64,000 nucleotides of DNA, from IMG/VR virus record IMGVR_UViG_3300040801_001810, positions 166,194 to 230,193 of that record, one strand, 5' to 3'. Below are positions 32,455-48,249 of this stretch, in pieces (the first letter of the stretch is position 1; each line of letters starts with the position of its first letter). The notes below the pieces were generated by a model. That model saw nothing but the letters and a program-made list of their open reading frames with translations, did not search any database and was not told the DNA's origin. Origin of the DNA: a virus (taxonomy: Duplodnaviria; Heunggongvirae; Uroviricota; Caudoviricetes). The translations under genes were made by a program, and so were the position numbers.

Positions 32455-33228
32455 TTGACAATGGCAGAGAAGGGAAAACTTCACGCCGTGCTCGCTGTCT
32501 ATGATGACAGAAAAAAGACCATGGCAAAAATTCTTGGTGAGACTATGAAGACACTCACCAGTCGACAGACTCACTTTATGGGAAGTTCAAAGACTTATCA
32601 AGCATTTGATGATAAAGATAAGGATATTCCCCGCAGTGAAATCAAACATGTAGTAACTACTGTTGGTGAGAAAGTAGATTACTTCGAAGACAGAGCTTCT
32701 AACTTTATTGATGTTGTACATCAAAAGGAAGTTGCCAACTGTGAAGCAAAAGGCACAATCACTATTGAGCGTGACGGGGAATCACCAATCGTTGTAGCTG
32801 AGAATGTACCAGTACAAGAACTTGTTCAACTCGAGAACTTGTTTGTACAATTCCGTTCACAGGTATACAATAACATCCCAACTCTGGATCCAAATAAGAA
32901 GTGGGATGAAGACGAGAATAATCCTGGTCATTACAGGACAGAAGCGTATAATACTGTTCGTACACGTAATCAGCCCAGAGTTATTCAGTTGGCTCCTGCT
33001 ACTAAGGAACACAAAGAACAAGCACAGATTGTCAATGAAGATATCCCTGTTGGTGAGTACACAATGGTTGATTTTTCAACGTGTATTAGTCCAAAGGATA
33101 AAGCAGACAAACTTGAGAAGATAGATGAACTCATTGAAGCAATTAAGAAGGCTCGCTCAAAGGCGAATCAGACTGAAGCTCCCAATGAGAAGATAGCTCA
33201 TAAGCTATTTAAGTTCATCAACAGCTAG
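32455..33228 (+). CDS. hypothetical protein
   Basis: 257-aa ORF with RBS aatggaggttgacaATG. Confidence 0.5.
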   Translation: MTMAEKGKLHAVLAVYDDRKKTMAKILGETMKTLTSRQTHFMGSSKTYQAFDDKDKDIPRSEIKHVVTTVGEKVDYFEDRASNFIDVVHQKEVANCEAKGTITIERDGESPIVVAENVPVQELVQLENLFVQFRSQVYNNIPTLDPNKKWDEDENNPGHYRTEAYNTVRTRNQPRVIQLAPATKEHKEQAQIVNEDIPVGEYTMVDFSTCISPKDKADKLEKIDELIEAIKKARSKANQTEAPNEKIAHKLFKFINS

Positions 33229-33447
33229 ATTATTACTGTCGAAGTACAGTTAATAATAAACGGACATATGCTAATGCTCATGTTGATATTTATACTGAAA
33301 GGGATAACAGACGACAGGCACCCGTTCATACTATCGCATGTCCAATGCTTATGTGAGTACAACCTTTAACAGTTATGATTGCTAACCTAAATACCAACAC
33401 AAGATGTGATTTATCCTATCACAAGATTTTCGGTATTTAAATCTTCC

Positions 33448-33548
33448 TGGGCCACGGGTTCGAATCCCGTCACTGTCCCCAAGGCATCTGCGTGCAGGTG
33501 CTCTGAGACAGTGTAACTCAGCGGTAGAGTACAAGGTATGATACTAAA
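33448..33548 (+). ncRNA. anomalous tRNA-like element. The 3' half (T-arm GGGTTCGAATCCC, acceptor CACTGTC, C, encoded CCA) lies UPSTREAM of the matching 5' half (GACAGTG-TA-ACTC-AGCGGTA-GAGT). This is consistent with a circularly permuted tRNA gene or two tRNA fragments.
   Basis: Read directly. ACGGG-TTCGAAT-CCCGT-CACTGTC-C-CCA at 33454-33481. GACAGTG (exact complement of the acceptor 3' strand) plus a canonical D-arm at 33507-33531. No acceptor 5' strand found upstream. Confidence 0.3.
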
Positions 33549-33687
33549 CTAGCAGTCGAATAACTGTCGGGATACTACTCTTTATTAGCTCTTAAATGAG
33601 CAATCTACTATTAATAGATAATAAACCTGATTGGGGGGTGCGGCGTGGTAAGTCGCATCCTCCTTCTTTTTCCTTAAGGATTTACTA

Positions 33688-34243: not shown

Positions 34244-35434
34244 ATGTCTACAAAATTCAAGGTAACTCTTGGAATTATTATTGTTATTTTGATAACAATT
34301 ATCGCACTTGGAAACAACATTGTCAGTTGGAATGATGCTGGTCAAACTCTTGTAACTCAGTATCCAAATGGTAAAATAAAGGTTGTTCTCACACCTGGAC
34401 CATACTGGCAAGCATTTGGTCAAGAATTTGAGTACAATCATTATGCAACAATCGGATTTGGTACACAAAAAGGTGATCGTTCAGCGGATATCGCTGCTGT
34501 ACCAGTAATCTTTAATGATGCTTCGACAGCAGGAATATCACTTCTTGCTCGTGTTCAAATGCCTCAAGATGAAGTGAAGATGAGTAAAATTAAACAACAG
34601 TTTGTAAATGGATACACTCATTTCCTTACAGCAGGTGCAGTACCAGTAATTGAGAACATTGTTAAGATTTCAGCTAACCTTAGATCTTCACAAGAAGCTT
34701 TCCAGACAATGTCTCAGTTCAAGACAGATATTGAAACTCAACTTCGAGACGGTCAATATGTTACCAAAGCAGTAGAAAAATGGGTAACTAAAGCTACTGG
34801 TGATAGTGAACGAGTAAAGCTTACAGAGATCGTATATGCAGAAGATGGAGTAACCCCATTGACTACTACACATGATCTTAAGGAAATGGGATGTAAAGTA
34901 ACTATTCAAGTTCTTGAAGTTCCAGATTTTGATCAACGCACAAAAGACATGATTGCTCAACGTAAAGAACAGTCATTGCAAACAGAAGTTCGTAAGCAAG
35001 AAGCAATTCGTGCTGAACAAGAAGCCATCACAGCAGAAGCATCAGGTAAAGCTGAAGCAATGAAGGTTAAGTGGGAACAAGAAAAAGAGAAAGCCAAAGA
35101 AGTTACAATGGCTGAAAAACGTAAGGAAGTAGCTAAGCTTGATATGGAATCAGCAGCATTTAAAAAGAAGGCTGACATTCTTGAAGGTGAAGGTATTGCC
35201 GCAAAGAAGAAACTTATCATGCAAGCTGATGGTGCTCTTGAGCTTAAGCTTAAAGCAGCTGTTGAGATTAATAAGAATTATGCAACAGCAATTCAGAATT
35301 TCCAAGGAAATCTTGTGCCTCAGTATATTAGCGGAAACGCAGATGGAAAATCATCTTCAGCAATGGATCTAATTGAGATGCTGAAGATTAAGACAGCAAA
35401 AGATCTTTCTCTTGATATGTCTACAAAGAAATAA
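34244..35434 (+). CDS. SPFH/band-7 (HflK/flotillin-like) membrane protein with C-terminal coiled coil
   Basis: N-terminal TM helix, ~180-aa globular region, then EA-rich heptad region (AEQEAITAEASGKAEAMKVKWEQEKEKAKE...) typical of SPFH family architecture. Confidence 0.45.
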   Translation: MSTKFKVTLGIIIVILITIIALGNNIVSWNDAGQTLVTQYPNGKIKVVLTPGPYWQAFGQEFEYNHYATIGFGTQKGDRSADIAAVPVIFNDASTAGISLLARVQMPQDEVKMSKIKQQFVNGYTHFLTAGAVPVIENIVKISANLRSSQEAFQTMSQFKTDIETQLRDGQYVTKAVEKWVTKATGDSERVKLTEIVYAEDGVTPLTTTHDLKEMGCKVTIQVLEVPDFDQRTKDMIAQRKEQSLQTEVRKQEAIRAEQEAITAEASGKAEAMKVKWEQEKEKAKEVTMAEKRKEVAKLDMESAAFKKKADILEGEGIAAKKKLIMQADGALELKLKAAVEINKNYATAIQNFQGNLVPQYISGNADGKSSSAMDLIEMLKIKTAKDLSLDMSTKK

Positions 35435-35444
35435 CAAGAGCTAA

Positions 35445-35792
35445 GTGGTGCAGCAGCTGCAAAAGGGTAGGATTAAGTTCCTACCCTTTTTTTATTTGGA
35501 GAATAACATGTTTTGGACAATACTTTTATTAATTGTAGGAGCAGGTTTAATAGCTCTTGCTATATGGGCTTCAAGTGAATACGAAGAAGAATTAGCAGCA
35601 CTTTTAGGAATAACAGCATTAGCATGTATTTTAATAGGACTCGGTCTATTGTTTAGTGGAAAAAAAGAATCATCAGTTACGAATACTAAGACAGAAGTAA
35701 TAGTTGATACAACCAAAACTTCTGTCTCTAATATAGATACAACAAAAGAAGAGAAAGATCGATGGCACGATAATAAGGAGTGGATGGAATGA
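35445..35792 (+). CDS. small membrane protein
   Basis: 115 aa with two TM helices. The internal ATG at ~35508 (after the terminator) is the likelier start. Confidence 0.4.
   Translation: MVQQLQKGRIKFLPFFYLENNMFWTILLLIVGAGLIALAIWASSEYEEELAALLGITALACILIGLGLLFSGKKESSVTNTKTEVIVDTTKTSVSNIDTTKEEKDRWHDNKEWME
35461..35496 (+). terminator. rho-independent terminator
   Basis: AAAGGGTAGG-ATTAAGTT-CCTACCCTTT followed by TTTTTAT. Confidence 0.55.
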
Positions 35793-36162: not shown

Positions 36163-36921
36163 ATGAGTGACGAACAGTTGGTATCAACCGTAACTGCAAG
36201 CGGATTCAACTTTGGTCATGTACCAATCAATGATGATCTTAGCGACACTGAGTATATGATTGGAATGATAGCTGTTGATGCTTCTTCCTCTGTATCTTCA
36301 TTTGAAAAGGAAATGGAAGATTGTCTTTGTGATATTACAAAGATGAATCAAAAACTTCAGACTGCTAATAAAATTATGCAACGTGTTACGAAGTTTGGAA
36401 GCAACATATCTGAAATCCATGGTCTTCAACAGATAGCGAATCTTGATGCATCCACAGCATATAAAGGAAAAGTAAAACCAAGAGGAATGACTGCATTATA
36501 CGATGCAACTATGGATGCAATCGAATCATCAGAACAATTCTGTCGAGATCTTGTTGATAATGATTATGATGCAACTGCTTGTATTTTCATTATTACAGAT
36601 GGAGAAGAAAATAATTCAATCAAAGTTCGTGACCCAAAGATTATTAAAGATAAACTTGATAGTCTTCGAAAAGATGAAAAAGCATTTACTTCTCCTCCCA
36701 TCGTTGTACTAATTGGTGTTAATATTCAAGATAAATATGTCAAAGACTGTCTTGATTCTTTTTCAAAAGAAGCAGGTCTTGACAAATTCGTAGCAATTGA
36801 AGATGCTACTCCTTCCAGTCTCGGGAAGATTGCTGGACTCATTTCTCAGAGTTTCTCAAGCAAGTCCCAGAATGTTACTTCACAGAACATTCAGCAGACA
36901 CTCAGCCAAGTTACAATCTAA
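36163..36921 (+). CDS. von Willebrand factor type A (vWA) domain protein (TerY-like)
   Basis: MIDAS motif IAVDASSSVS (DxSxS), TALYDATMDAI, and ACIFIITDGEEN (DG) in correct order. RBS accaggagaatgaaATG. Confidence 0.6.
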   Translation: MSDEQLVSTVTASGFNFGHVPINDDLSDTEYMIGMIAVDASSSVSSFEKEMEDCLCDITKMNQKLQTANKIMQRVTKFGSNISEIHGLQQIANLDASTAYKGKVKPRGMTALYDATMDAIESSEQFCRDLVDNDYDATACIFIITDGEENNSIKVRDPKIIKDKLDSLRKDEKAFTSPPIVVLIGVNIQDKYVKDCLDSFSKEAGLDKFVAIEDATPSSLGKIAGLISQSFSSKSQNVTSQNIQQTLSQVTI

Positions 36922-36988
36922 AGCACGGACTTATCCTTTCACCGTGCTTGATAGGGGCGACAATTAAGATAATATATCTTGTCGCCCC
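36922..36988 (+). terminator. tandem hairpins (AGCACGG...CCGTGCT; GGGGCGACAA...TTGTCGCCCC) downstream of the vWA gene
   Basis: Read directly. The second hairpin is followed by CTTTACCCC rather than a T-run, so this may be a stabiliser or processing site. Confidence 0.4.
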
Positions 36989-37190
36989 GCCTTTACCCCT
37001 TAGATTCTTGGAGAAGCAATGATTATATTTTTACTACTATGGATAGCCATAGGACTAGCTTCTCTTTGTTATTGGATTACCAAACTTCAATTAGTAATTA
37101 AAAGATTTAGATCTATAACTATAGCAGCTATAGCTGGACCATTCACTAATTTTATAATTTGGTATTTACATACAACCGAGAGAGATAAAG

Positions 37191-38033
37191 ATGTTTAAAA
37201 CCGATTCATTCTTTTCTATTGGAGCATCTCATGATATATGTCAGGATTATTCCAGCGCATTAAGTACTGTAGAAGAAAATCCAAAAGGTATGATATTTAT
37301 ATCAGATGGATGTTCTATGATTGCTACTAATGATAATCATTGTGTTCCTCATCCTTCTAGTGATATAGCAGCTAGATTAGTTATACTGGCAGCTATGGCT
37401 TCAATGCTTGACTGTAAGTATATAACACAAGCAGTAGATCAAATGAAGGGTATACTTAAAGGATTTACAGAAGCTACGACTTTTGGTATGCTTGACGCTA
37501 CTCTTATTGGAGTGCGTTGGATTAATAAACCAGAAATACTATGGATCGGTGATGGAGCTATTTTAGTTGAAACCGAAAGAGAATATATTATTAAGTATCG
37601 AACATTCTCTCCAAATATGCCAGTCTATTGTTCTTACTTGGTTAAATATTTCCAAGGTGAAAAATATATTAAAACTGGCGTAGAAATGACCACCAATACA
37701 ATCATACTTGATAAGACATGGGATGTTATAGCTAGTGGTAATAAAGTAGAAAAGCTTAAGACGCTGGAAGATTCAATGTTCATAGATGCAGAAGAAGATA
37801 CAACTCATGATATAATATCTATCAGTGCTTTTTCTGACGGTATAGAAGATATATTATTGCCTTCAAAAGATAGGATGCCTATCATTGATGCTATTAAGAC
37901 TTTAGTATCATTTAAGCATACAAGTGGATTATTTGTACGTAGACGCATGAAAGCTCAGCTTAGACGTTGGGCAAGCGAAGGTATCTTCCCCAATGATGAC
38001 TTATCTATGGCAACCATAATACACAACGTCTAA
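37191..38033 (+). CDS. PP2C-family Ser/Thr phosphatase-like protein
   Basis: FSIGASHDICQDYS ... MIFISDGCSMIATND resembles the PP2C acidic metal-binding motifs (..D.G.....ED.. / ..V.DGMGG..). Divergent. Confidence 0.45.
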   Translation: MFKTDSFFSIGASHDICQDYSSALSTVEENPKGMIFISDGCSMIATNDNHCVPHPSSDIAARLVILAAMASMLDCKYITQAVDQMKGILKGFTEATTFGMLDATLIGVRWINKPEILWIGDGAILVETEREYIIKYRTFSPNMPVYCSYLVKYFQGEKYIKTGVEMTTNTIILDKTWDVIASGNKVEKLKTLEDSMFIDAEEDTTHDIISISAFSDGIEDILLPSKDRMPIIDAIKTLVSFKHTSGLFVRRRMKAQLRRWASEGIFPNDDLSMATIIHNV

Positions 38034-38092
38034 AGTATGACATTAAAACGTCATACATTTATCTTGTTGTAAATTATGTTTCAAAAGAAATT

Positions 38093-38323
38093 ATGATGAA
38101 ATTACTACTCAGAGAACGACCAAATAAACCAGTTAATCCAAAAGCTTATATTAACCATAGTTTTACATCTGATCAGAAGAAAATTATTTGGAACTGGTTT
38201 TATGAAAACGAAAGAAAACGAGCAGTAATATCCAAGGATACAATCATAAATTTGTTTCAACGGGCTAAGACTAAGAAAAAACCACAAATTGGAGCAAGTA
38301 TTATACTTCCAGGAAAAGAATGA
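38093..38323 (+). CDS. hypothetical basic protein
   Basis: 76-aa ORF. Confidence 0.35.
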   Translation: MMKLLLRERPNKPVNPKAYINHSFTSDQKKIIWNWFYENERKRAVISKDTIINLFQRAKTKKKPQIGASIILPGKE

Positions 38324-38473
38324 TGTTAGTAATATGTGATAATTATAAAACATGCAAAATGCGTCATGAATGTGGTGGAGCTAAACCACATGAAAGATGT
38401 AGTGAGTGTGGTAATTGCCCATTTGGGAAAGGCGTAGAATGTAATGAATACATTATATCAAAAGATAAAAAAT
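38321..38473 (+). CDS. small Cys-rich protein (~50 aa)
   Basis: MMLVICDNYKTCKMRHECGGAKPHERCSECGNCPFGKGVECNEY. Below track cutoff. Overlaps the next gene start. Confidence 0.3.
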
Positions 38474-38893
38474 GATATCATACGAGCAATGAAAGAACAC
38501 GCATTATTAGTAAGAAATGTTCTAAGATGCCTAGATGCTGAAATTCAACTGAAAGCTAAGGAAACTAAACAAGCTATCAATGATGATATGGTGATACAAG
38601 CAATAAAGCGAAATATCAAACAACGAAAAGCATCTATTATTGAGTTTGATAAGGGAAATAGAAATGATTTATCTAAGAAAGAAGAACTAGAAATAGTAGT
38701 ACTTCAACATTACTTGCCAGAAATGATGAATAAGGAAACAATTACATTAGCTGTAGAAGAAGCTATTAAGAATGTTGGGGCCATTACTTCTAAAGATATG
38801 GGCAAAGTAATGGGCGCATTAAAAGATCTTAAATCAAAAGCAGACATGAAATTAGTAAATCAAATAGTAAAAGAAAAACTTCAGTCAAACTAA
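38444..38893 (+). CDS. GatB/YqeY domain protein
   Basis: LYQKIKNDIIRAMKEHALLVRNVLRCLDAEIQ...SKKEELEIVVLQHYLPEMMNKETITLAVEEAIKNVGAITSKDMGKVMGALKDLKSKADMKLVNQIVKEKL matches the YqeY family pattern (..YLP..ms.eEl...v.e.i...ga....mGkvMg.....g.adg..v...v...L). Confidence 0.55.
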   Translation: MNTLYQKIKNDIIRAMKEHALLVRNVLRCLDAEIQLKAKETKQAINDDMVIQAIKRNIKQRKASIIEFDKGNRNDLSKKEELEIVVLQHYLPEMMNKETITLAVEEAIKNVGAITSKDMGKVMGALKDLKSKADMKLVNQIVKEKLQSN

Positions 38894-38909
38894 TTCTGAG
38901 GAGGATAAG

Positions 38910-39758
38910 ATGGCAAAAGTTGGATTGATCATTATCGATGGTCAAAAGGATTTCTGTGAAGGAGGCAAACTGGCTGTTACAGGAGGTAACGAATGTCTCG
39001 AAAAAGTATCAGATATGATTGATAGAATTGGAGATAAACTCTACAATATCGACCTAACATTTGATGCGCATCACCAACATCATATTGCTCATAGTTGTAT
39101 GTGGGTAGATAATGATGGCAATAATCCACCACCATTTACACTTATGACCCCTGCTGATGTCATTGGCACAGGAGCACAATATAGAGCAGCTAATATTGGA
39201 TACATGGCTACTCAGGAGAAATACATCCAAGAACTTGCGAAACGTAATGACTCAAGAGAAGCAATGGGACTTCTTCGTATTGAGCATTGTATTTGGCCTG
39301 AACATTGTCTTATTGGTACCGATGGTATGTCTCTTAATGAAAGGCTTCTTCAGTCAATCATGGCATGGGAGCTTAAAAAGAAGAGACCAACAAATAAGAC
39401 AACTAAAGGATCATTTATGTTTGCTGAGCATTTCTCAGTATTCAAGGCAGAGGTGCCAAATGATCTAGATCCAGCAACAAAGACAAATATGCATCTGATT
39501 AATAACTTGTCCAGTCTTGACATGTTGGCATGGGCTGGTCTTGCAAAAGATTATTGTCTCATGAATAGTTTCATTGATTTCATTCTCGAACTGAGTGGTG
39601 GAGATCAAAAGATTGCTGAAGATATTTCAAAGAAAATGGTATTTATCGAAGACGGTACCGCTTCTGTTGGTGCAGTACCTGCGCTTGCTGACAAGTTTGA
39701 TGAATTCCTTACTAAGTGGGGAGTTGAACGAGTTAAAGCAGAGGACTTTCTAAAATAA
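38910..39758 (+). CDS. pncA: nicotinamidase (isochorismatase-family, PncA-like)
   Basis: N-terminal GLIIIDGQKDFCEGGKLAVTGG equals the PncA signature (hhhhD.QNDFc.gG.LaV.g.). Later HCIWPEHCLIGTDG supplies the catalytic Cys region. RBS ctgaggaggataagATG. Confidence 0.65.
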   Translation: MAKVGLIIIDGQKDFCEGGKLAVTGGNECLEKVSDMIDRIGDKLYNIDLTFDAHHQHHIAHSCMWVDNDGNNPPPFTLMTPADVIGTGAQYRAANIGYMATQEKYIQELAKRNDSREAMGLLRIEHCIWPEHCLIGTDGMSLNERLLQSIMAWELKKKRPTNKTTKGSFMFAEHFSVFKAEVPNDLDPATKTNMHLINNLSSLDMLAWAGLAKDYCLMNSFIDFILELSGGDQKIAEDISKKMVFIEDGTASVGAVPALADKFDEFLTKWGVERVKAEDFLK

Positions 39759-39776
39759 TACGGAGAGGGAGGGGAA

Positions 39777-39815
39777 TAAAGGAGGGTAGTAGGATGACCC
39801 TCCTCCCCACTTTTA
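39777..39815 (+). terminator. hairpin GGAGGGT-AGTAGGATG-ACCCTCC followed by TCCCCACTTTTATT (terminator-like) overlapping the kinase track start
   Basis: Read directly. Suggests the kinase initiates at the ATG at 39818. Confidence 0.35.
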
Positions 39816-41488
39816 TTATGAAGATTACATTGAAAAATAAGAATCAATTCTTTACGCTAAAGCAAACAGATTATGTTGCAGGTGGTGGTGAAGGAAAAGT
39901 ATATCGTAGAGGATCAGTAGCATTTAAGATATACCATGATCCAAAGAAAATGATTCCTCTAGATAAGATAAATGCTCTTTGTAAACTTACACCAAAGAAT
40001 GTGCTAGCTCCTAGAGATATTTGTTTAAATAATCGTGATATACCAGTTGGTTTCACAATGGATTATGTAAGCGATACCGTATTTCTATGTTGGCTATTTA
40101 ATAGAGGATGGAGAATACAAAATAATGTAACTCCAGATATGATTACCAAACTCATCAATAAGATGAGAGAAACAACCATTACTCTTCATAATGAAAAATG
40201 TGTAGTAGGTGATTATAATGAAATGCAATTCCTCACAAATAAATCGTTTTCTGATGTTTACTTCTGTGATACTGATTCTTATCAAATTGGTAGGTTTGGC
40301 TGTACTGCTATTATGGATACTGTTAGAGACAGGATTCTTCCATTTGGTCAATTTAACGAAGGTAGCGATTGGTTTGCATTCGCAGTAGTTACTAGCCAAC
40401 TATTTACAGGCGTTCATCCTTATAAGGGAAGACACCCTGATTATACAAAAAGAGAAGTAAATCAACTTAAGCTTATGGATGAGAATATATCTATCTTCAA
40501 TCCATTAGTTACAATGCCTAAGCAAGCGCAGCCTCTCAATTCAATTCCACATAATATTAGAGATTGGTATGAAGAAGTACTTGAGCGTAAGTGGAGAGAC
40601 ATACCTCCTAAAATAGGAACTGGTGTACAATTTATTGTTATGCCAACAAGAGTATTATCATCTACAGATACATTTGAAGTAAAAGAAGCATTATCAATAC
40701 CAGAATTAATTAGAAAAATATGCCTAGTTAATGGCAAGCTATATATAGTTGGAGAAAATACACTCTATTTAAACGATAGAGCAATAACTAGTTTACCATT
40801 ATCAAGTGAACATTTTGTAGTTAAGTGTGAAGGAGATTTTAACCATATTAGATGTGAACAATATGGTAAAAATTTACATTTTTATCACTTACCAAATCCA
40901 AATCAAGAGATTTATTCGTGTTTAGCACATCATGTTACAACATATGATGGTGAATTATATATTATAAGAGATGGAAGTGCAATAAAATGCACTTTTAAGA
41001 AAATGTTCGGGAAAGTTATGTGTGATGAACAAAAAGTAGGAGATGTATTTACTCCTACTGTTAAAGCTTTTCCTGGTGTATTTGTTCAAGATATATTAGG
41101 TATACCATGGATTGGTGTACCAAATAACAATAGCTTTAATAATATACAGCTAAGTAAATTAATATATCATCGTATTATTGATGCTAAATATGAAGGCGGT
41201 ATATGCTTACTAATAACTGAGCATAAAGGTAAAACATATAGAACTATTGTATCTAATGATGGAGTCATTTCAGAAGAATGTGATAGTACAGAAAGAGCCA
41301 ACTTTACTACAGTTGGTTCAGTAGCCGCTATTATCATTGGAGACGAAGAACTAAGACTTAGAGTTGATGTTGGTACTAAGGTTATTCAAACTCCTCCTTT
41401 TGATAGTTCAATGACAATGTGTAGTGATGGAGCTAGAGTATTAGTTATTAATGGTAAGAAACTTTTACATATTTCAACAAAGCATTAA
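39794..41488 (+). CDS. eukaryotic-like Ser/Thr protein kinase (likely start 39818)
   Basis: Gly-rich loop AGGGEGKVYRRGS followed by VAFKIY (VAxK lysine). FCDTDSYQIG in the DFG-equivalent position. ~270-aa C-terminal extension of unknown function. Confidence 0.55.
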   Translation: MTLLPTFIMKITLKNKNQFFTLKQTDYVAGGGEGKVYRRGSVAFKIYHDPKKMIPLDKINALCKLTPKNVLAPRDICLNNRDIPVGFTMDYVSDTVFLCWLFNRGWRIQNNVTPDMITKLINKMRETTITLHNEKCVVGDYNEMQFLTNKSFSDVYFCDTDSYQIGRFGCTAIMDTVRDRILPFGQFNEGSDWFAFAVVTSQLFTGVHPYKGRHPDYTKREVNQLKLMDENISIFNPLVTMPKQAQPLNSIPHNIRDWYEEVLERKWRDIPPKIGTGVQFIVMPTRVLSSTDTFEVKEALSIPELIRKICLVNGKLYIVGENTLYLNDRAITSLPLSSEHFVVKCEGDFNHIRCEQYGKNLHFYHLPNPNQEIYSCLAHHVTTYDGELYIIRDGSAIKCTFKKMFGKVMCDEQKVGDVFTPTVKAFPGVFVQDILGIPWIGVPNNNSFNNIQLSKLIYHRIIDAKYEGGICLLITEHKGKTYRTIVSNDGVISEECDSTERANFTTVGSVAAIIIGDEELRLRVDVGTKVIQTPPFDSSMTMCSDGARVLVINGKKLLHISTKH

Positions 41489-41491
41489 ATT

Positions 41492-41683
41492 ATGTTAGAT
41501 AAAATAATATTAACATCTGTATTAACAGCAATAATATGTATATCAGGTGGAGCAATTGGTGGTTCGATGGATAGAAGCGGAATCGACATTCCTGAATGGT
41601 GGTCATTAACTACAATGTATGGATTTTTAATAAGTCTAGTAACATTTATCGTGTGTATATATATTAACATTTGGATTAACTAA
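41492..41683 (+). CDS. small membrane protein
   Basis: 63 aa with two hydrophobic helices. Confidence 0.4.
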   Translation: MLDKIILTSVLTAIICISGGAIGGSMDRSGIDIPEWWSLTTMYGFLISLVTFIVCIYINIWIN

Positions 41684-41685
41684 TT

Positions 41686-42855
41686 ATGATTATCAAAAGC
41701 AAACTAGATATTGACCTTTATAAATTTAAAATGTTATATTTTCTATGGGCAACAGATCAATTAAATATTCCAGTAGTATATAGATTCTTTAATAGAACTC
41801 CTATTAAATTAGAACAATATGTATCTATGTCTGAAGTTCAAATGGAACTATCTCATTTTAGAAATAATTTTTATTCTGCTAAAGAACTTGATTATTTATG
41901 TACTTTATTTGAACCAGCATTTGTAGAATTTCTACATGCACAAAAAATTAGTAATGCAAAAGTAATACCAAAAACACATGGTTTTGGATTTGATATTGAA
42001 GGAACATATAGTAATGTTATACTTCATGAAACAGCTTTATTGTCTATAATTAATGAACTCTATTGTAAAAGAATACTAGAAGTAATTGATCCAGAAATTG
42101 AAGAACACTATAGAAAAACAAATTTAGCTAACTCTATAGATATGATTAAGAATACTAATATTCGCTTTGTTGAATTTGGTACAAGAAGAAGATTTAGTGC
42201 AGATTGGCAAGCTGAAGTATTAGGTCGTATTAGAAATCATATACCAGACAATTTAATTGGTACTAGTAATGTATATTTAGCTATGATGCAAGATGTTACT
42301 CCTATTGGAACAATTGCTCATGAAATGCATTCATTTTATGCTGCAACACAACCAACAGAAATACATAGCCAAAGTACTTTAGTAAAAGAATATACACGTA
42401 TATTTCCAGAAACATTCTTTCTAACAGATACATTCGGAACACAAGATTTTCTTGATAATTGTTGTGAAGAAGATGAACATCTATATGGATTAAGACAAGA
42501 TAGTGGATCCACAACAGCATGGATGAATGCACTTGAAGCAAAATTTCCAAGTTCATTACCAAGACCAAAAATAATGTTTAGTGATGGATTAACAGCTCCT
42601 AAAATAATTTCATTATATGATAATTATAGTTCAAGATGGCAATGTAATTTTGGTTGGGGAACTAATCTTACCAATAATGGAATAATTAAACCATTAAGTA
42701 TTGTAATGAAACTATGGAAAGCTGATAAGAAATATTGTATCAAACTAAGTGATAACCCAAATAAAGCTGTTGGACATCCTAAAGAAGTTGAAAAATATAA
42801 ATGGATATTTAACTATAATAAAAATATTACACATAAAACAAAGGTGGTTTATTAA
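41686..42855 (+). CDS. pncB: nicotinate phosphoribosyltransferase
   Basis: DLYKFKM (E. coli DAYKLHM), VEFGTRRRFS (E. coli MDFGTRRRFS), GTIAHEM (GTQAHEW), LRQDSGS (LRHDSGD), KLSDNPNKAVGHPKEV (KLSDSPGKTICHDKAF) line up along the whole length. Confidence 0.85.
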   Translation: MIIKSKLDIDLYKFKMLYFLWATDQLNIPVVYRFFNRTPIKLEQYVSMSEVQMELSHFRNNFYSAKELDYLCTLFEPAFVEFLHAQKISNAKVIPKTHGFGFDIEGTYSNVILHETALLSIINELYCKRILEVIDPEIEEHYRKTNLANSIDMIKNTNIRFVEFGTRRRFSADWQAEVLGRIRNHIPDNLIGTSNVYLAMMQDVTPIGTIAHEMHSFYAATQPTEIHSQSTLVKEYTRIFPETFFLTDTFGTQDFLDNCCEEDEHLYGLRQDSGSTTAWMNALEAKFPSSLPRPKIMFSDGLTAPKIISLYDNYSSRWQCNFGWGTNLTNNGIIKPLSIVMKLWKADKKYCIKLSDNPNKAVGHPKEVEKYKWIFNYNKNITHKTKVVY

Positions 42856-43103
42856 TGCCTAAGTATAAAATTACTGCTTCAGGAAAAGCTGTAGAAAATG
42901 CAGCAAAAGAAGTAGGAGATATGTTCAAAGAACTATTTAAAGATCTTCCACTACAATTAGAAGAAGTTGGTATTTCTCTTACAATTAATACTGAAAAAGA
43001 ATTTTCAGAAGAAGATATAACAACATTTACTTCTATTCTTGAAAAAGAAGCATTGGGACTTAAAGATCTAATTGAAACTAAAGTTACTGTGGAGAAATTA
43101 TGA
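42855..43103 (+). CDS. hypothetical protein between pncB and nadE
   Basis: 82-aa ORF with ATGA overlaps on both sides. Confidence 0.45.
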   Translation: MPKYKITASGKAVENAAKEVGDMFKELFKDLPLQLEEVGISLTINTEKEFSEEDITTFTSILEKEALGLKDLIETKVTVEKL

Positions 43104-43993
43104 ATTTACCAGTAGATCCTTACTTTGTAGAAAAAAATATTAAGCGTCAAACATGCAGTTATATAAGAAAACATAATATTAAATCATTGGTATTAGGTAT
43201 ATCTGGTGGACTTGATAGTGCTGTTGTTGCTTCTTTAATGGCTGGGGTTGCAGCAGAAGAATCAATACCACTTATTGGTATATCTCTTCCAAGCGATTCT
43301 AACCAAGATGAAGAAATAGCTAGAGCAGATGCAGTAGGGAAAGAATATTGTACTAAGTTTACTACATATGAAATTGATAATGATTTTGTAGAAGTATCAG
43401 ATAGTATTTACTTAATACTATCAAAAATTTTAGATGGAGAATTAACCGATTGGGAACAAAAGATTTTAGCTGGTAATATTAAAGCTAGATTAAGAATGAT
43501 TCTACTATTTGCTACAGCTGGTGCTACCAAAGGTATGGTACTATCTACTGATAATAAAACAGAAGAAATGCTTGGATTCTGGACACTTCATGGAGATGTA
43601 GGTAATTTTGGTCCTATACAAAATCTATGGAAATCAGAAGTATATGAACTTGCAAGATCTATATATGATCAAAGAGGAGTACAAGCATTAAAGGATTGTA
43701 TAGATGCTACTCCTACAGATGGACTAGGAATCACAAGTAGCGATCTAGATCAAATAGGTGTAGATAGTTATGATGAAGCTGATCGAAGAATACAAAACTA
43801 TATTAAACTAGCTACTAATCTTTTTGACGTTAAATCATTCTTTGATCAAGCAAAAGCTGTACAACAGATATGCGATTTACCTATTAATGATCCAGTTATT
43901 AATCGTATGGTTAATAGTGAATTTAAACGCAAAGATCCATATAACATACCAAGAGATCAACTATTTATTAAACCTAATCAAAGAATAGAATAG
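43100..43993 (+). CDS. nadE: NH3-dependent NAD+ synthetase
   Basis: KSLVLGISGGLDSAV (PP-loop SGGxDS; E. coli SLVLGISGGQDS), NIKARLRMILLFA (NEKARERM), VLSTDNKTEEMLGFWTLHGDVGNFGPIQ ([27 protein letters not shown]). Confidence 0.85.
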   Translation: MNLPVDPYFVEKNIKRQTCSYIRKHNIKSLVLGISGGLDSAVVASLMAGVAAEESIPLIGISLPSDSNQDEEIARADAVGKEYCTKFTTYEIDNDFVEVSDSIYLILSKILDGELTDWEQKILAGNIKARLRMILLFATAGATKGMVLSTDNKTEEMLGFWTLHGDVGNFGPIQNLWKSEVYELARSIYDQRGVQALKDCIDATPTDGLGITSSDLDQIGVDSYDEADRRIQNYIKLATNLFDVKSFFDQAKAVQQICDLPINDPVINRMVNSEFKRKDPYNIPRDQLFIKPNQRIE

Positions 43994-44021: not shown

Positions 44022-44097
44022 TGGGGTATAGTTCAGTGGCTAGAACGCCAGGTTTTGAGCCTGGATGTCGGGGGTTCAAATCCCTCTACCCCTTCCA
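44022..44097 (+). tRNA. tRNA-Gln (anticodon TTG), CCA encoded
   Basis: TGGGGTA-TA-GTTC-AGTGGCTA-GAAC-G-CCAGG-TTTTGAG-CCTGG-ATGTC-GGGGG-TTCAAAT-CCCTC-TACCCCT-T-CCA. U1:U72 mismatch at the top of the acceptor stem. Confidence 0.75.
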
Positions 44098-44103
44098 TTT
44101 ATT

Positions 44104-44676
44104 ATGAAAACAAAACTACTTACAAATATAAAAGAAGTAAAAGATGCTGCTCTTGATACAGTAGGATTAAAATCTACTAAAGAAGCTACATCTGATTGGC
44201 TTTATCAAATACTTTATGCTGAACATTCTCCTATCAGAAATATTATTATTAAAAGTACCTGGGAGAAAATTAAATATTGGGTAAGCGTTCACCTAACGAG
44301 ACACAAAATCGGAATAGAGCATTTTGTAAAGACACAGAGATCAGATAGAACTGGAGTAGATAGAGATAATCTACCTCAAGGAGCTGAAGTTCAGCACAGT
44401 ATAGTAGCTAATGCTCAAGCTATAATTAATATATCTCGTAAAAGAATGTGTAAACAAGCTTCTAAAGAAACAAGATTAGCTTGGCAAGAATTTTTAAAAA
44501 GTTTTTATTATGAATTACCAGAATTAAACTTTGTATGTGTTCCAGAATGTATGTACAGAGGATTTTGTCCTGAAATCAAATGTTGTGGTTATGTAAATAG
44601 TAATGATTACAAAGAACTCAGACAAGAATATATAGATAAATGTAAGGAGCTTCAATGCAAGCAAGACCATTTATAA
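44104..44676 (+). CDS. divergent ThyX-like (flavin-dependent thymidylate-synthase-like) protein, uncertain
   Basis: AEHSPIRNIIIKST...VHLTRHKIGIEHFVKTQRSDR loosely follows the ThyX pattern EH..f.F......SR...HQLVRHR..S..QeSQRY, but RHK replaces RHR and the SQRY tyrosine is absent. Confidence 0.3.
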   Translation: MKTKLLTNIKEVKDAALDTVGLKSTKEATSDWLYQILYAEHSPIRNIIIKSTWEKIKYWVSVHLTRHKIGIEHFVKTQRSDRTGVDRDNLPQGAEVQHSIVANAQAIINISRKRMCKQASKETRLAWQEFLKSFYYELPELNFVCVPECMYRGFCPEIKCCGYVNSNDYKELRQEYIDKCKELQCKQDHL

Positions 44677-44966
44677 AAGTAAACAATGGAAATATATTTA
44701 GAGATGTAGATGGAACAACTTATGTTAAAACTCCTAAATCAGCTACATCATCAGAAGGAATTTTTACTAATTGTGTAGTCTTAATAACTAATTCTAAAGA
44801 TCTCTCAAGAGGAGATCTAGTTAAAAAAGTAAAAGATGTCTACTGCGAAGTTATCGATGCAGCAGAAATAATTCAGCTCCAAGGAGATGAATCTTTGCAA
44901 GAAGCAAATAAAAGTATAATTCGAGGCGATAATGAGACAAGTTCGATTATCGAGGATAGAGACTAA
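44655..44966 (+). CDS. hypothetical protein
   Basis: 103-aa ORF. Confidence 0.4.
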   Translation: MQARPFIKVNNGNIFRDVDGTTYVKTPKSATSSEGIFTNCVVLITNSKDLSRGDLVKKVKDVYCEVIDAAEIIQLQGDESLQEANKSIIRGDNETSSIIEDRD

Positions 44967-45333
44967 TCCTAAACACGGAACATTTGGTGTATTGGTTGTA
45001 GATGGAGAAGCATTTTGTGTAACTCTTGAACCTTATTCTAGAAATAACGTAACATCTATATCAAGTATTAATGCTGGACAATACCTATGTACTGTAGTAG
45101 ATTCTCCACGATGGGGACACACATATACAGTTACTAATGTAGAAGGAAGAGATCTTATTAGAATACATGCTGGAAATATAGATGATAATACAGAAGGATG
45201 TATTATTATAGCTCAGTATTTCGGTAAGCTGCGTGGAAATAGAGCTGTACTTAACTCAGGAAATACACATAAAGCATTCATGAAATTAATGAATGATGAG
45301 CCATTTATATTAACAATTACTGAAAATTATTAA
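44932..45333 (+). CDS. hypothetical protein (possible His/Cys hydrolase-like small domain)
   Basis: 133 aa. IRIHAGNIDDNTEGCIII has a HxG...GC arrangement. Family not identified. Confidence 0.4.
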   Translation: MRQVRLSRIETNPKHGTFGVLVVDGEAFCVTLEPYSRNNVTSISSINAGQYLCTVVDSPRWGHTYTVTNVEGRDLIRIHAGNIDDNTEGCIIIAQYFGKLRGNRAVLNSGNTHKAFMKLMNDEPFILTITENY

Positions 45334-45348
45334 CTATACTATACAAAC

Positions 45349-45423
45349 CTGCGTGTAGCTCAGCTTGGTCAGAGTTCTGGTCTTGGAGTCCAGATGTCGG
45401 GGGTTCAAATCCCTCTGCGCAGA
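45349..45423 (+). tRNA. tRNA-Pro (anticodon TGG)
   Basis: CTGCGTG-TA-GCTC-AGCTTGGTCA-GAGT-T-CTGGT-CTTGGAG-TCCAG-ATGTC-GGGGG-TTCAAAT-CCCTC-TGCGCAG-A. Confidence 0.7.
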
Positions 45424-45427
45424 AATA

Positions 45428-45502
45428 CGGGATATAACTCAGTCTGGTCAGAGTGCTCGGTTTGGGGCCGAGTTGCCGCTGGTTCGAATCCAGCTATCCC
45501 GA
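45428..45502 (+). tRNA. second tRNA with anticodon TGG (Pro), different sequence
   Basis: CGGGATA-TA-ACTC-AGTCTGGTCA-GAGT-G-CTCGG-TTTGGGG-CCGAG-TTGCC-GCTGG-TTCGAAT-CCAGC-TATCCCG-A. Confidence 0.7.
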
Positions 45503-45508
45503 TAATAA

Positions 45509-45540
45509 GGAGATCACTTAAGTGTGGTCTCCTTTTTTAT
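45509..45540 (+). terminator. rho-independent terminator after the tRNA pair
   Basis: GGAGATCAC-TTAAGT-GTGGTCTCC followed by TTTTTTAT. Confidence 0.55.
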
Positions 45541-45551
45541 TTGAGGATTCC

Positions 45552-46853: not shown

Positions 46854-47517
46854 ACAAATGAATAGAGAAGGAAATGCTCTTGTAGTACAAAGTGTTCAGC
46901 AACAACTTGGAATGAGTTCCGATGAAATTGCTAATGCTCGAGTAGCAGCGGTAGAAAATCATTTGCTTAAACTCCAAGATAGTATTTCAGACGAAATTTC
47001 AGGAATTGATTCATTAATAAAGGAAAAGAAAAAAGATCTTCATTTCAAAGATGATGAATGGAAATCAAAAGCAAAAGATGAATTTGAAGACAAATTTACA
47101 AAAGAACTAACAAAAGTATCTTTTGGAACAAAATTGGCTATTACTGTTAACTCATATAAAGTTACAAAAAAGGATAGCTCTACTGATCATGATCAAATCG
47201 AGCTTATTGCTTATCTAGCTAATATTGATGCCAAAAGTAGAGGATATGGTTCTGATGGAGTTAATATTGGAGCTAGCAAAGTAAAAATTCCAGCTACTGA
47301 TAAGAAAATTATTATTAAGCTTACTAAAGAAATTGAACCTTTGATTAGTAAAAAAGAAGAACTTCAACAAAAGCTTCTTAAAATTAGCGGAAAGCTAGCT
47401 AACCTTGATAGAGAAGAACGACAAGCTAAAGCATTGCTAGTTGCTTCAAAGGTTAACTCCTATGAAGGAGGAGCAGAATTTATGGAAGTAATCACTGGAA
47501 ATATGCCAGAGATTTAA
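46819..47517 (+). CDS. hypothetical coiled-coil protein
   Basis: 232-aa ORF. Confidence 0.45.
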   Translation: MNVPNLPVASNEQMNREGNALVVQSVQQQLGMSSDEIANARVAAVENHLLKLQDSISDEISGIDSLIKEKKKDLHFKDDEWKSKAKDEFEDKFTKELTKVSFGTKLAITVNSYKVTKKDSSTDHDQIELIAYLANIDAKSRGYGSDGVNIGASKVKIPATDKKIIIKLTKEIEPLISKKEELQQKLLKISGKLANLDREERQAKALLVASKVNSYEGGAEFMEVITGNMPEI

Positions 47518-47535
47518 TATTATAAAATCTAATAA

Positions 47536-48227: not shown

Positions 48228-48249
48228 ATAGACTATATTATATACACAT

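What the first reader, a model, noticed from the sequence alone, without database searches (positions are those of the whole stretch)
33448..33548. Apparent circularly permuted or split tRNA gene: 3' half with encoded CCA lies upstream of its own 5' half
A perfect T-arm (ACGGG-TTCGAAT-CCCGT), acceptor 3' strand CACTGTC, discriminator C and CCA end at 33481. The exactly complementary acceptor 5' strand GACAGTG, followed by TA and a canonical D-arm (ACTC-AGCGGTA-GAGT), starts 25 nt downstream at 33507. No acceptor 5' strand exists upstream. This is the arrangement of permuted tRNA genes known from a red alga and some archaea, not from phages. Alternative readings are two independent tRNA fragments or a tRNA-like regulatory RNA. 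The remaining anticodon region is non-canonical.
Basis: seen in the sequence. Interest (0 to 1): 0.65.

Follow-up and report, generated by a model that had tools for sequence, protein, structure and literature searches.

The report
Phage tRNA-shaped RNA beside DUF7873
The "back-to-front tRNA" is real, but it is not a tRNA gene: it is the tRNA-shaped head of a structured non-coding RNA of the bacterial Y-RNA-like (YrlA) type, and here it belongs to a large, apparently undescribed group that sits next to an unknown protein (DUF7873) instead of next to Ro60.

Summary
A perfect T-arm, a 7-nt acceptor 3' strand and C+CCA end at 33481. The exact complement follows at 33507, then U8-A9 and a canonical D-arm. 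No pairing partner lies upstream.

It is not a decoding tRNA. There is no anticodon loop. The "anticodon stem" (33445-49/33532-36) continues into a long stem made by the RNA's two ends, and the 25-nt "spacer" is a hairpin that closes the acceptor arm. This is the YrlA design, described in the literature as a circularly permuted tRNA with a closed acceptor stem.

The best Rfam hit is YrlA, but below threshold (34 bits, cut-off 69). No Ro60/TROVE gene is nearby. Instead the RNA lies about 200 nt downstream of a DUF7873 gene.

That pairing recurs widely: 82 of 84 phage loci and about 70 of 80 bacterial loci. All four helices and the 15-48 Levitt pair covary.

Phage copies usually keep a 7-bp acceptor stem followed by encoded NCCA (40 of 51). 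Bacterial copies do so much less often (18 of 77). This suggests RNase P cleavage into a two-piece tRNA mimic, but that step is inferred. The function is unknown.

Verdict: a new variant of a known kind, of moderate interest.

The parts
32455..33228 (+). DUF7873 protein gene, the conserved upstream neighbour of the RNA. The database protein P0001 starts at the ATG at 32461 and is 255 aa.
   Evidence: Pfam PF25283, 212 bits. The identical protein sits on a 230-kb JGI contig. The AF2 model has pLDDT 93 but no informative fold match.
33229..33257 (+). Hairpin directly after the stop codon: AUUAUUACUGU-CGAAGU-ACAGUUAAUAAU. A hairpin occupies the same place in L085, with a different loop.
   Evidence: Sequence and alignment A4. 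Its role was not tested.
33262..33343 (+). Upstream stem-loop domain closed by GGACAU/AUGUCC. The closing sequences are conserved in the 54%-identity relative L085. It may be part of the same transcript.
   Evidence: This is a prediction only.
33355..33384 (+). 5' strand of the long terminal stem: GAGUA 33355-59, CAGUUAU 33370-76, UUGCUA 33379-84.
   Evidence: MFE fold and duplex fold (z = -2.2) pair it with 33550-33580. L085 forms the equivalent helix with different sequence.
33389..33445 (+). Predicted branch hairpins inserted in the 5' strand: UGUGAU/AUCACA, and either AAAUACC/GGUAUUU or AAGAUUU/AAAUCUU.
   Evidence: The alternative folds were not resolved.
33445..33453 (+). Closing-stem strand UCCUG (equivalent to tRNA nt 39-43), followed by the 4-nt variable loop GGCC. 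The last C is position 48 of the Levitt pair.
   Evidence: Pairs with 33532-36 at 4 of 5 positions. The family helix is 71% paired and all 5 pairs show double changes. The 15-48 pair is G-C in 43, A-U in 7 and mismatched in 1 of 51.
33454..33470 (+). T-arm: ACGGG-UUCGAAU-CCCGU.
   Evidence: G53, T54, T55, C56, A58 and C61 are invariant in 51 homologues.
33471..33481 (+). Acceptor 3' strand CACUGUC, discriminator C and encoded CCA.
   Evidence: Seven of 7 pairs with 33507-13. NCCA is present in 40 of 51 phage homologues.
33482..33506 (+). Spacer that closes the acceptor arm as a hairpin (GGCAUCUG / CAGGUGCU). If RNase P cleaves at 33506/33507, it would serve as both 3' trailer and 5' leader.
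   Evidence: Spacer length varies from 4 to 67 nt across homologues. Cleavage is inferred, not shown.
33507..33515 (+). Acceptor 5' strand GACAGUG, then U8 and A9.
   Evidence: U8 is invariant in 51 of 51. All 7 acceptor pairs show compensatory changes.
33516..33530 (+). D-arm ACUC-AGCGGUA-GAGU, with A14, G15, G18, G19 and A21.
33531..33549 (+). Nucleotide 26, the closing-stem strand CAAGG (nt 27-31 equivalent), then the internal-loop sequence UAUGAUACUAAAC. A motif of the type UYAGNCUAAA recurs in homologues.
33550..33580 (+). 3' strand of the long terminal stem: UAGCAG, bulge UCGA, AUAACUG, then UACUC.
   Evidence: In a 7-member subfamily a 12-bp long-range helix covaries at 9 pairs.
33588..33618 (+). 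Two small hairpins: GCUC-UUAAAU-GAGC (conserved in L085) and UCUAC-UAUUAAU-AGA.
33633..33673 (+). Intrinsic terminator (12-bp GC-rich stem plus a U-run), conserved in L085. This is the likely 3' end of the primary transcript.
34244..35792 (+). Context genes: an SPFH/Band-7-type protein (34244-35434) and an NfeD-like membrane protein (35445-35792).
   Evidence: The syntenic L085 orthologue hits Pfam Band_7 at 27.1 bits (cut-off 23.6). Window 35445-35792 hits NfeD_membrane at 25.2 bits (cut-off 26). The window protein itself has no Pfam hit.

Best explanation
The finding is the tRNA-like head of a structured non-coding RNA. The core with its terminal stem spans about 33355-33580. The RNA is probably transcribed together with, or just after, the upstream DUF7873 gene and ends at the terminator at 33633-33673.

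Its design is that of YrlA-type bacterial Y RNAs. The two ends of the RNA pair into a long stem with internal loops. That stem leads into a 5-bp helix equivalent to the anticodon stem. On top sit a T-arm, an acceptor arm closed into a hairpin, and a D-arm. All the nucleotides that build the tRNA elbow are kept. There is no anticodon loop, so the RNA cannot decode.

Shown here: the structure, its covariation, and its near-obligate linkage to DUF7873 in phages and bacteria.

Inferred:
(1) The RNA folds into an L-shape and is recognised by tRNA enzymes.
(2) In the phage subfamily, the exact 7-bp acceptor stem and the encoded NCCA make it an RNase P substrate. Cleavage at 33506/33507 followed by 3' trimming of the spacer would give a nicked, two-piece tRNA mimic with a free CCA end. 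Mycobacterium smegmatis YrlA sets the precedent.
(3) DUF7873 is its protein partner or functional companion, taking the place of Ro60.
(4) The particle acts as a tRNA mimic in phage-host conflict over tRNAs, for example as a decoy or adaptor for factors that bind the acceptor end or the elbow. It might instead act as a cofactor in RNA repair.

Steps 3 and 4 are the weakest.
For: - Rfam: the best hit is YrlA, matched over the full model, E = 3.9e-5. The same sub-threshold YrlA hit appears downstream of DUF7873 in Rhizobium, Klebsiella and Gordonia phages.
- RNAalifold on 51 sequences recovers the closing stem, T-arm, acceptor arm and D-arm. Nineteen of 20 pairs show compensatory changes.
- Pair counting gives 93% paired and a covariation score of 0.86, against 0.22 for shuffles and 0.09-0.20 for slid controls.
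- U8, A14, G18, G19, T54, T55, C56 and A58 are invariant or nearly so, and the 15-48 Levitt pair covaries.
- Linkage to DUF7873: hits of at least 40 bits lie 100-300 nt downstream on the same strand in 82 of 84 phage loci and about 70 of 80 bacterial loci.
- An unbiased pattern scan of viral contigs gave 12 units with full acceptor complementarity. Nine of them have DUF7873 upstream. None of 117 tandem-tRNA junctions does.
- Long terminal stem: seen in the window and in L085. A 12-bp helix covaries in a subfamily.
- NCCA follows the acceptor strand in 40 of 51 phage units; chance would give about 1 in 64.
- The window also encodes a CCA-adding enzyme, RlaP, 11 tRNAs and a tmRNA.
Against: - The match to Rfam YrlA is far below the gathering score (34 vs 69 bits).
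- The Ro60-binding motif is not on the 5' strand.
- There are no expression data, so the transcript ends and any processing are unproven.
- DUF7873 has a near-neutral pI (median 6.9) and no recognisable RNA-binding fold. Direct binding is therefore only guilt by association.
- Three of 12 units found without bias have no DUF7873 nearby.
- Bacterial copies mostly have a short closed loop, and only 18 of 77 have NCCA. Two-piece processing therefore cannot be general.
- My regular expression required perfect T-arm, acceptor and D-arm pairing, so the 100% pairing in those helices is partly by construction. The variety of pair types and the closing stem are not.
Confidence: 0.75

Rival explanations
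1. It is an ordinary Ro60-binding Y RNA (a true YrlA). Its Ro60/Rsr partner would be encoded elsewhere in the 230-kb phage genome or by the host, and DUF7873 would be an incidental neighbour.
For: - YrlA is the best Rfam hit and the module order is identical.
- The terminal stem carries a bulge containing CGAA (33556-60).
- CGAA in a stem bulge is the motif used to recognise phage Y RNA-like molecules (PMC12135203).
- YrlA is occasionally found next to Band-7 proteins, and an SPFH/Band-7-type gene lies 570 nt downstream.
Against: - No TROVE domain was found in any tested window ORF, in bacterial neighbours, or in the complete Gordonia phage Ziko genome.
- The conserved neighbour in more than 150 loci is DUF7873.
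- The score is half the Rfam cut-off, and none of 11 bacterial loci reaches it.
- In the window the motif is on the 3' strand, not the 5' strand. CGAA occurs on either strand in under a third of the 71 units.
Confidence: 0.12
2. It is a processing or regulatory element of the DUF7873 mRNA. A tRNA-like structure in the 3' UTR would direct RNase P or exonuclease processing, or autoregulation, and would have no independent function in trans.
For: - It always lies downstream of DUF7873 on the same strand.
- No sigma-70-like promoter was found between the gene and the RNA in the window.
- A terminator follows the RNA.
Against: - Strict conservation of the elbow nucleotides and of a long terminal stem points to a stable folded RNA rather than a simple cleavage signal.
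- Many loci carry two tandem units.
- Klebsiella phage FBKp24 has an annotated promoter between the gene and the RNA.
- Some units occur without DUF7873.
Confidence: 0.08
3. It is a genuine circularly permuted or split tRNA gene whose halves are joined, through a circular intermediate or trans-ligation, into a decoding tRNA.
For: - The 3' half lies upstream of the 5' half.
- The acceptor strands are perfectly complementary and CCA is encoded.
- The phage encodes RNA-repair-type enzymes: RlaP and a CCA-adding enzyme.
Against: - No anticodon loop exists in the window or in any of about 150 homologues. The helix equivalent to the anticodon stem opens into a long two-stranded stem.
- No conserved aminoacylation identity elements are seen. 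The discriminator and pairs 1-72 to 3-70 vary freely.
- Bacteria and phages lack the splicing endonuclease pathway used for permuted tRNAs. This last point rests on general knowledge.
Confidence: 0.02
4. It is a two-piece (permuted) tmRNA-like gene.
For: The order is permuted, with T-arm, acceptor strand and CCA. There are weak partial hits to beta_tmRNA (23 bits) and tmRNA_permuted (13 bits).
Against: - The hits cover only the T-arm and acceptor stem and are far below the cut-offs (84 and 47 bits).
- G3:U70 is absent in 51 of 51 homologues.
- The D-arm is canonical, unlike in tmRNA.
- ARAGORN calls no tag reading frame or tmRNA here.
- The window already has a standard tmRNA at 61162-61531 (122 bits).
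Confidence: 0.01
5. It is a chance juxtaposition: the junction of two degraded tRNA genes, or an att-site remnant.
For: Tandem tRNA junctions do give weak hits to the same model, for example window 45385-45468 at 24.8 bits. Chen et al. flagged this class of false positive.
Against: - Acceptor complementarity is 7/7 and covaries across 51 homologues.
- Only 12 of 129 pattern matches in viral contigs show such complementarity, and 9 of those have DUF7873 upstream.
- No tRNA remnants flank the element.
Confidence: 0.01

Closest known systems
YrlA (Y RNA-like A; Rfam RF02553), the tRNA-mimicking Y RNA of bacteria and some phages
   Same: - Same module order: terminal stem, helix like an anticodon stem, variable loop, T-arm, closed acceptor stem-loop, D-arm.
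- Conserved elbow nucleotides and Levitt-pair covariation.
- Occurs in phages.
- M. smegmatis YrlA also has a 7-bp acceptor stem, is cut by RNase P and acquires CCA.
   Different: - Not next to Ro60/Rsr. Its conserved neighbour is DUF7873.
- Scores half the Rfam cut-off.
- The GNCGAAN0-1G motif is absent from the 5' strand.
- Phage members encode NCCA after an exact 7-bp acceptor stem, with a spacer of 4-67 nt. Typical YrlA has a 6-bp stem closed by a tiny loop.
[quoted passage not shown]
   Same: A tRNA-like non-coding RNA encoded beside an SPFH/Band-7 protein in RNA-repair contexts. In the window an SPFH-type gene lies 570 nt downstream of the RNA.
   Different: - b7a-tRNA is described as strongly resembling an authentic tRNA and as sitting beside RtcB.
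- No RtcB is seen in the window.
- The Band-7 neighbour was seen only in the window and its close relative L085. It was not seen in the four annotated phage loci, nor as a conserved cluster in the bacterial loci.
- The original paper could not be read.
Circularly permuted tRNA genes of Cyanidioschyzon merolae and some other algae and archaea
   Same: The 3' half (T-arm and acceptor 3' strand) is encoded upstream of the 5' half (acceptor 5' strand and D-arm).
   Different: Those genes reconstitute a full tRNA with an anticodon loop, through a circular intermediate made by the splicing endonuclease and ligase. Here there is no anticodon loop and no evidence of joining.
Two-piece tmRNA (permuted ssrA of alpha-proteobacteria, some beta-proteobacteria and cyanobacteria)
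   Same: Permuted order, an encoded CCA, and processing of one precursor into two base-paired pieces. This serves as the model for the processing proposed here.
   Different: There is no G3:U70, no tag reading frame and no pseudoknots, and the D-arm is canonical.

Membership tests
YrlA / bacterial Y RNA (Rfam RF02553) | tRNA-like module in the order T-arm, acceptor-like stem-loop, D-arm, with conserved tertiary-contact nucleotides | tested here: met
   U8, A14, G18, G19, T54, T55, C56 and A58 are conserved. The 15-48 pair is G-C in 43 and A-U in 7 of 51.
YrlA / bacterial Y RNA (Rfam RF02553) | The 5' and 3' ends pair into a stem that carries the protein-binding site | tested here: met
   Window 33355-84 pairs with 33550-80. 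L085 forms an equivalent helix. In a subfamily, a 12-bp helix has 9 covarying pairs.
YrlA / bacterial Y RNA (Rfam RF02553) | Ro60-binding motif GNCGAAN0-1G on the 5' strand of the stem | tested here: not met
   The motif is absent from the 5' strand in the window. GUCGAAU lies on the 3' strand (33555-61). Across 71 units CGAA occurs in 19 on the 5' side and 22 on the 3' side.
YrlA / bacterial Y RNA (Rfam RF02553) | Encoded next to a Ro60/Rsr (TROVE-domain) gene | tested here: not met
   No TROVE domain in 20 of the window's 28 ORFs of 200 aa or more, including all of 300 aa or more, in the bacterial neighbours tested, or in the complete Gordonia phage Ziko genome. The rest of the 230-kb contig was not visible.
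YrlA / bacterial Y RNA (Rfam RF02553) | Reaches the Rfam gathering score (69 bits) | tested here: not met
   34.1 bits in the window, 31-38 bits in three phages, and no hit at gathering score in 11 bacterial loci.
YrlA / bacterial Y RNA (Rfam RF02553) | Binds Ro60 and is modified by TruB and DusA | not testable with these tools
   This needs immunoprecipitation and modification mapping.
Circularly permuted tRNA gene (C. merolae type) | The 3' half is encoded upstream of the 5' half, with complementary acceptor strands | tested here: met
Circularly permuted tRNA gene (C. merolae type) | The halves reconstitute a complete cloverleaf with a 7-nt anticodon loop | tested here: not met
   The closing stem opens into a two-stranded internal loop and a long stem in the window and its homologues.
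Circularly permuted tRNA gene (C. merolae type) | Bulge-helix-bulge motif and a circular RNA intermediate | not tested
   I did not search for a BHB motif. A circular intermediate needs RT-PCR.
Two-piece (permuted) tmRNA | G3:U70 alanine identity pair in the acceptor stem | tested here: not met
   Pair 3-70 is G-C, C-G, U-A or A-U in 50 of 51 and never G-U. In the window it is C-G.
Two-piece (permuted) tmRNA | Tag reading frame and pseudoknots, and a model score above the cut-off | tested here: not met
   ARAGORN makes no call here. tmRNA_permuted scores 13 bits against a cut-off of 47, and beta_tmRNA 23 against 84.
[quoted passage not shown] | Encoded beside a Band-7/SPFH protein and RtcB | tested here: inconclusive
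   An SPFH-type gene lies downstream, identified through the L085 orthologue (Band_7, 27.1 bits). No RtcB was seen in the window. The defining paper is not held.

The most novel reading that the evidence does not exclude
DUF7873 and this RNA form a Ro60-independent tRNA-mimic particle that is widespread in phages and mobile elements. In phages the RNA would be cut by host RNase P and trimmed into a two-piece "nicked tRNA" with a free CCA end. That end would then be charged, modified, or attacked in place of real tRNAs. It could, for example, act as a decoy for defence toxins that target the acceptor end, or as a cofactor for the phage's tRNA repair enzymes. This would be a new class of phage counter-defence or RNA-repair cofactor. 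It would also name a protein partner for the long-unexplained tRNA-like domain of Y-like RNAs.
Probability: 0.25. Interest if true: 0.75.

Novelty: new variant of a known kind. Interest (0 to 1): 0.5.

Why it matters
YrlA-type RNAs are known tRNA mimics, but the factor that reads their tRNA-like domain is still unknown. All described members were found by looking beside Ro60.

The RNA in this window shows that the same design exists in a much larger setting without an adjacent Ro60 gene. The DUF7873 family has about 2,200-2,600 clusters at 50% identity. Its members occur in phages of Proteobacteria, Actinobacteria, Bacteroidota and cyanobacteria, and in bacterial chromosomes of more than 500 species.

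This gives three things:
- a candidate protein partner that can be tested at once;
- cultured model phages in which to test it (Klebsiella FBKp24, Gordonia Ziko/Ronaldo, Rhizobium RHph_TM30, Vibrio K479);
- a clear contrast between phage and bacterial copies (NCCA in 78% vs 23%) that points to processing by RNase P.

There is also a practical gain. These elements are being mis-annotated as odd tRNAs or as small proteins.

Tried and rejected
- Megablast of the 2-kb region against phage genomes found nothing.
- An exact search for the T-arm plus acceptor 22-mer in viral contigs found nothing.
- A single-sequence locus search with DUF7873 failed. An alignment-based search was needed.
- The top 150 DUF7873 relatives are all about 245-275 aa and match over essentially their whole length, so no domain fusion gives a hint.
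- Clustering of neighbour genes in 80 bacterial loci found no conserved partner other than DUF7873. High-GC shadow ORFs made this noisy.
- A single universal sequence motif on the terminal stem was sought by k-mer enrichment and not found. Only subfamily motifs appeared: GAAAG, UUAAACG, CUCAAUGAAAG.
- The duplex-energy test of flank pairing across all units was only weakly significant (median z = -1.8).
- Burroughs and Aravind 2016 and the 2020 Ro60 review could not be read.
- I considered and rejected a tmRNA, a tandem-tRNA junction, an att remnant and a decoding permuted tRNA (see rivals).

Full report
**1. The observation**

- T-arm ACGGG-TTCGAAT-CCCGT, 33454-33470
- acceptor 3' strand CACTGTC, 33471-33477
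- discriminator C and CCA, 33478-33481
- 25-nt spacer
- perfectly complementary strand GACAGTG, 33507-33513
- TA, then a canonical D-arm ACTC-AGCGGTA-GAGT, 33516-33530

No 7-mer in the 150 nt upstream pairs with the acceptor 3' strand at 6/7 or better. ARAGORN and the Rfam tRNA model call nothing here, although they find 11 ordinary tRNAs and a tmRNA elsewhere in the window. A scan for the full arrangement finds it only once in the 64 kb, on either strand.

The spacer is itself a hairpin that continues the acceptor helix. In the primary transcript, therefore, the acceptor arm is closed.

**2. What it resembles**

I ran an E-value scan of Rfam over 2 kb. The best match is YrlA (Y RNA-like), across the whole model at 33430-33562, E = 3.9e-5. 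The score is only 34 bits against a curated cut-off of 69. The tmRNA models match only the T-arm and acceptor stem, and weakly.

YrlA RNAs have exactly this order: terminal stem, T-arm, closed acceptor-like stem, D-arm.
- Chen et al. 2014 found them beside Ro60 in more than 250 bacteria and phages. They showed that M. smegmatis YrlA, which has a 7-bp acceptor stem, is cut by RNase P and then receives CCA (PMC4201824).

**3. Neighbourhood**

No Ro60/TROVE protein is encoded in the window. I tested 20 of its 28 ORFs of 200 aa or more, including every one of 300 aa or more.

The gene ending about 200 nt upstream of the tRNA-like core (32455-33228) is a strong match to Pfam DUF7873 (212 bits). Relatives of this protein occur in 90 deposited phage genomes: Vibrio, Prevotella, Rhizobium, Gordonia, Klebsiella/Serratia jumbo phages, Arthrobacter, Pseudanabaena and Ralstonia.

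In four of them that are unrelated to each other, a YrlA-like or permuted T-arm/acceptor element lies 170-300 nt downstream of the DUF7873 gene.

**4. Family-level evidence**

- An alignment-based search of IMG/VR returned 80 more loci.
- A strict pattern scan found the permuted unit on the gene strand in 70 of 84 loci and in none on the opposite strand.
- RNAalifold on 51 units recovers a 4-bp closing stem, the T-arm, the 7-bp acceptor stem and the D-arm. Nineteen of 20 pairs have compensatory changes.
- Explicit pair counting gives 93% paired cells and a covariation score of 0.86. Shuffles give 0.22 and slid registers give 0.09-0.20.
- The closing stem was not part of my selection. It is 71% paired, and all five pairs show double changes.
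- U8 and A14 are invariant. G18, G19, A21, G53, T54, T55, C56, A58 and C61 are invariant or nearly so. The 15-48 Levitt pair is G-C in 43, A-U in 7 and mismatched in 1.
- A covariance model built from these units (R1) scores the window element at 74 bits. It finds a hit of at least 40 bits just downstream of DUF7873 in 82 of 84 phage loci. The weak hits (15-30 bits) are junctions of tandem tRNAs.

Two caveats apply. My regular expression required perfect T-arm, acceptor and D-arm pairing, so the 100% pairing in those helices is partly by construction. The window sequence was also in the training set of R1.

**5. No anticodon arm, but a terminal stem**

After the closing stem the chain does not turn back. 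When the core is replaced by a tetraloop, the flanks of most units fold into a long interrupted helix.

In the window, 33355-33384 pairs with 33550-33580 (GAGUA/UACUC, CAGUUAU/AUAACUG, UUGCUA/UAGCAG), with a UCGA bulge on the 3' strand. The 54%-identity syntenic relative L085 forms the equivalent helix with different sequence. It also shares the terminator and several flanking blocks.

In a 7-member subfamily, RNAalifold finds a 12-bp long-range helix in which 9 pairs covary. Across all units the duplex-energy test is only modest (median z = -1.8). No single sequence motif is universal.

**6. Reach beyond phages, and specificity of the link**

- DUF7873 is also found in more than 536 bacterial species, including Streptomyces, Nocardia, Nonomuraea, Glycomyces, Planctomycetota and Cytophagales. 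It often lies beside tRNA genes or a recombinase.
- About 70 of 80 bacterial loci carry one or two units directly downstream.
- No other neighbour gene is conserved. No TROVE domain was seen. None of 11 bacterial loci reaches the YrlA cut-off.
- The DUF7873 family has about 2,200-2,600 clusters at 50% identity. The 150 best hits are all about 245-275 aa and match over essentially their whole length.
- An unbiased pattern scan of viral contigs gave 129 matches. Of these, 117 were ordinary tandem-tRNA junctions, none with DUF7873. Twelve had 7/7 acceptor complementarity, and 9 of those have DUF7873 within 700 nt upstream.
- The complete genome of Gordonia phage Ziko carries the module, has no protein annotated as Ro, and the three large ORFs I tested with Pfam show no TROVE domain.

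**7. The CCA**

NCCA follows the acceptor strand in 40 of 51 phage units. Spacers range from 4 to 67 nt, and many are hairpins. In bacterial chromosomal units the acceptor hairpin is mostly closed by a 6-8-nt loop, and only 18 of 77 have NCCA.

Bacterial RNase P uses the 7-bp acceptor/T-arm stack and the RCCA end (established knowledge). M. smegmatis YrlA is processed in just this way.

I therefore infer that the phage RNAs are cut at the -1/+1 bond (33506/33507) and trimmed back to CCA. The two pieces would stay paired. This is not shown. The window also encodes a CCA-adding enzyme and an RlaP nucleotidyltransferase.

**8. The protein**

The AlphaFold model of DUF7873 is confident (pLDDT 93). 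It has no informative structural neighbour, no match in PHROGs, PADLOC or NCBIfam, and a near-neutral pI. That it binds the RNA is only an inference from gene linkage.

**9. Band-7 context**

The 396-aa gene 570 nt downstream (34244-35434) is an SPFH/Band-7-type protein, identified through its L085 orthologue. An NfeD-like membrane protein follows it.

The YrlA structure paper relays a prediction by Burroughs and Aravind. They describe a Band-7-associated tRNA-like RNA in RNA-repair operons and note that YrlA occasionally sits next to Band-7. I could not read the original paper. I saw this adjacency only in the window and L085. I therefore treat it as a lead, not as a defining feature.

**10. 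Verdict**

The interpretation as a permuted tRNA gene is right about topology and wrong about kind.

The element is a YrlA-like tRNA mimic. It fails three membership criteria of YrlA proper: Ro60 adjacency, the 5'-strand motif, and the Rfam score. It belongs instead to a large DUF7873-linked group. I could not find this group described, either in Rfam 15 or in the searchable literature.

I rate it a new variant of a known kind, with interest 0.5.

Noticed in passing
window 61162-61531 (+): A genuine one-piece tmRNA gene in this phage-like sequence: Rfam tmRNA at 122 bits, and an ARAGORN tag peptide GEETTEEFYPLAKAA. ARAGORN's overlapping "permuted tmRNA" call at 61438-61894 is probably an artefact that reuses the same T-arm.
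   Followed up: partly
window 44022-56496 (+), 9768-9841 (-), 63688-63780 (+): Eleven tRNA genes, including a tandem tRNA-Pro pair, plus an ARAGORN "tRNA-???" with a 2-nt anticodon at 63688-63780. RlaP (48507-49322) and a CCA-adding enzyme with an HD domain (52370-53758) are interspersed among them. This looks like a tRNA supply and repair region.
   Followed up: partly
window 36163-41488 (+): Possible vWA-like (36163-36921, DxSxS motif seen by eye, no Pfam hit), PP2C-like (37191-38033, weak Pfam hit, E = 0.004) and kinase-like (39794-41488, glycine-loop motif seen by eye) genes in a row. The arrangement is reminiscent of a TerY-P-type triad. In Candidatus Uabimicrobium (L129) a Ser/Thr kinase sits directly upstream of DUF7873.
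   Followed up: no
window 38910-43993 (+): An NAD salvage cluster. NAPRTase at 41686-42855 is a strong Pfam hit. The flanking ORFs look like a nicotinamidase/isochorismatase and an NAD synthetase by eye, but I did not test them.
   Followed up: no
window 33229-33343 (+): Between the DUF7873 stop codon and the RNA core lie two further elements. One is a perfect hairpin with the loop CGAAGU (33229-33257). The other is an 80-nt stem-loop closed by GGACAU/AUGUCC, whose closing sequences are conserved in L085. This could be a second RNA domain or a second small RNA, analogous to YrlB.
   Followed up: partly
L002 5015-5094 (Klebsiella phage vB_KpM_FBKp24, NC_061421 46041-46120): The annotated "tRNA-Sup-TTA" overlaps the closing stem, T-arm and acceptor 3' strand of a YrlA-like unit (R1 hit 5052-5159, 65.8 bits). 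It is probably a mis-call rather than a suppressor tRNA.
   Followed up: partly
L003 / L289 (Gordonia phage Ziko, MK919478 61389-61598): The annotated hypothetical CDS 126 lies over the two tandem tRNA-like units (R1 hits at L003 4889-4974 and 5038-5150). It is likely a spurious ORF call on an RNA gene.
   Followed up: partly
L027, L048, L060, L067, L072, L076-78, L084 and most actinobacterial loci (e.g. L098 6697-6782 and 6841-6923): Many loci carry two tandem units about 150 nt apart. One often has a long, type-II-like D-arm (GCGG-AAUUGGUAG-ACGC or GCCC-AAUGGCAG-AGGC), and its 3' flank carries UUAAACGG. This suggests two paralogous RNA classes per locus.
   Followed up: no
L189 2763, L193 2731, L224 2009 (viral contigs): Three permuted tRNA-like units with 7/7 acceptor pairing and NCCA have no detectable DUF7873 within 2.5 kb upstream (HMM search at E up to 10). 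The RNA can therefore occur without the adjacent protein gene.
   Followed up: partly
L089 7201-7274, L114 6911-6983, L096 5664-5829, L151 3758-5965: In bacterial genomes the DUF7873-RNA module often sits beside ordinary tRNA genes, and in one Streptomyces beside a large serine recombinase. This fits carriage on integrative elements or prophages.
   Followed up: no
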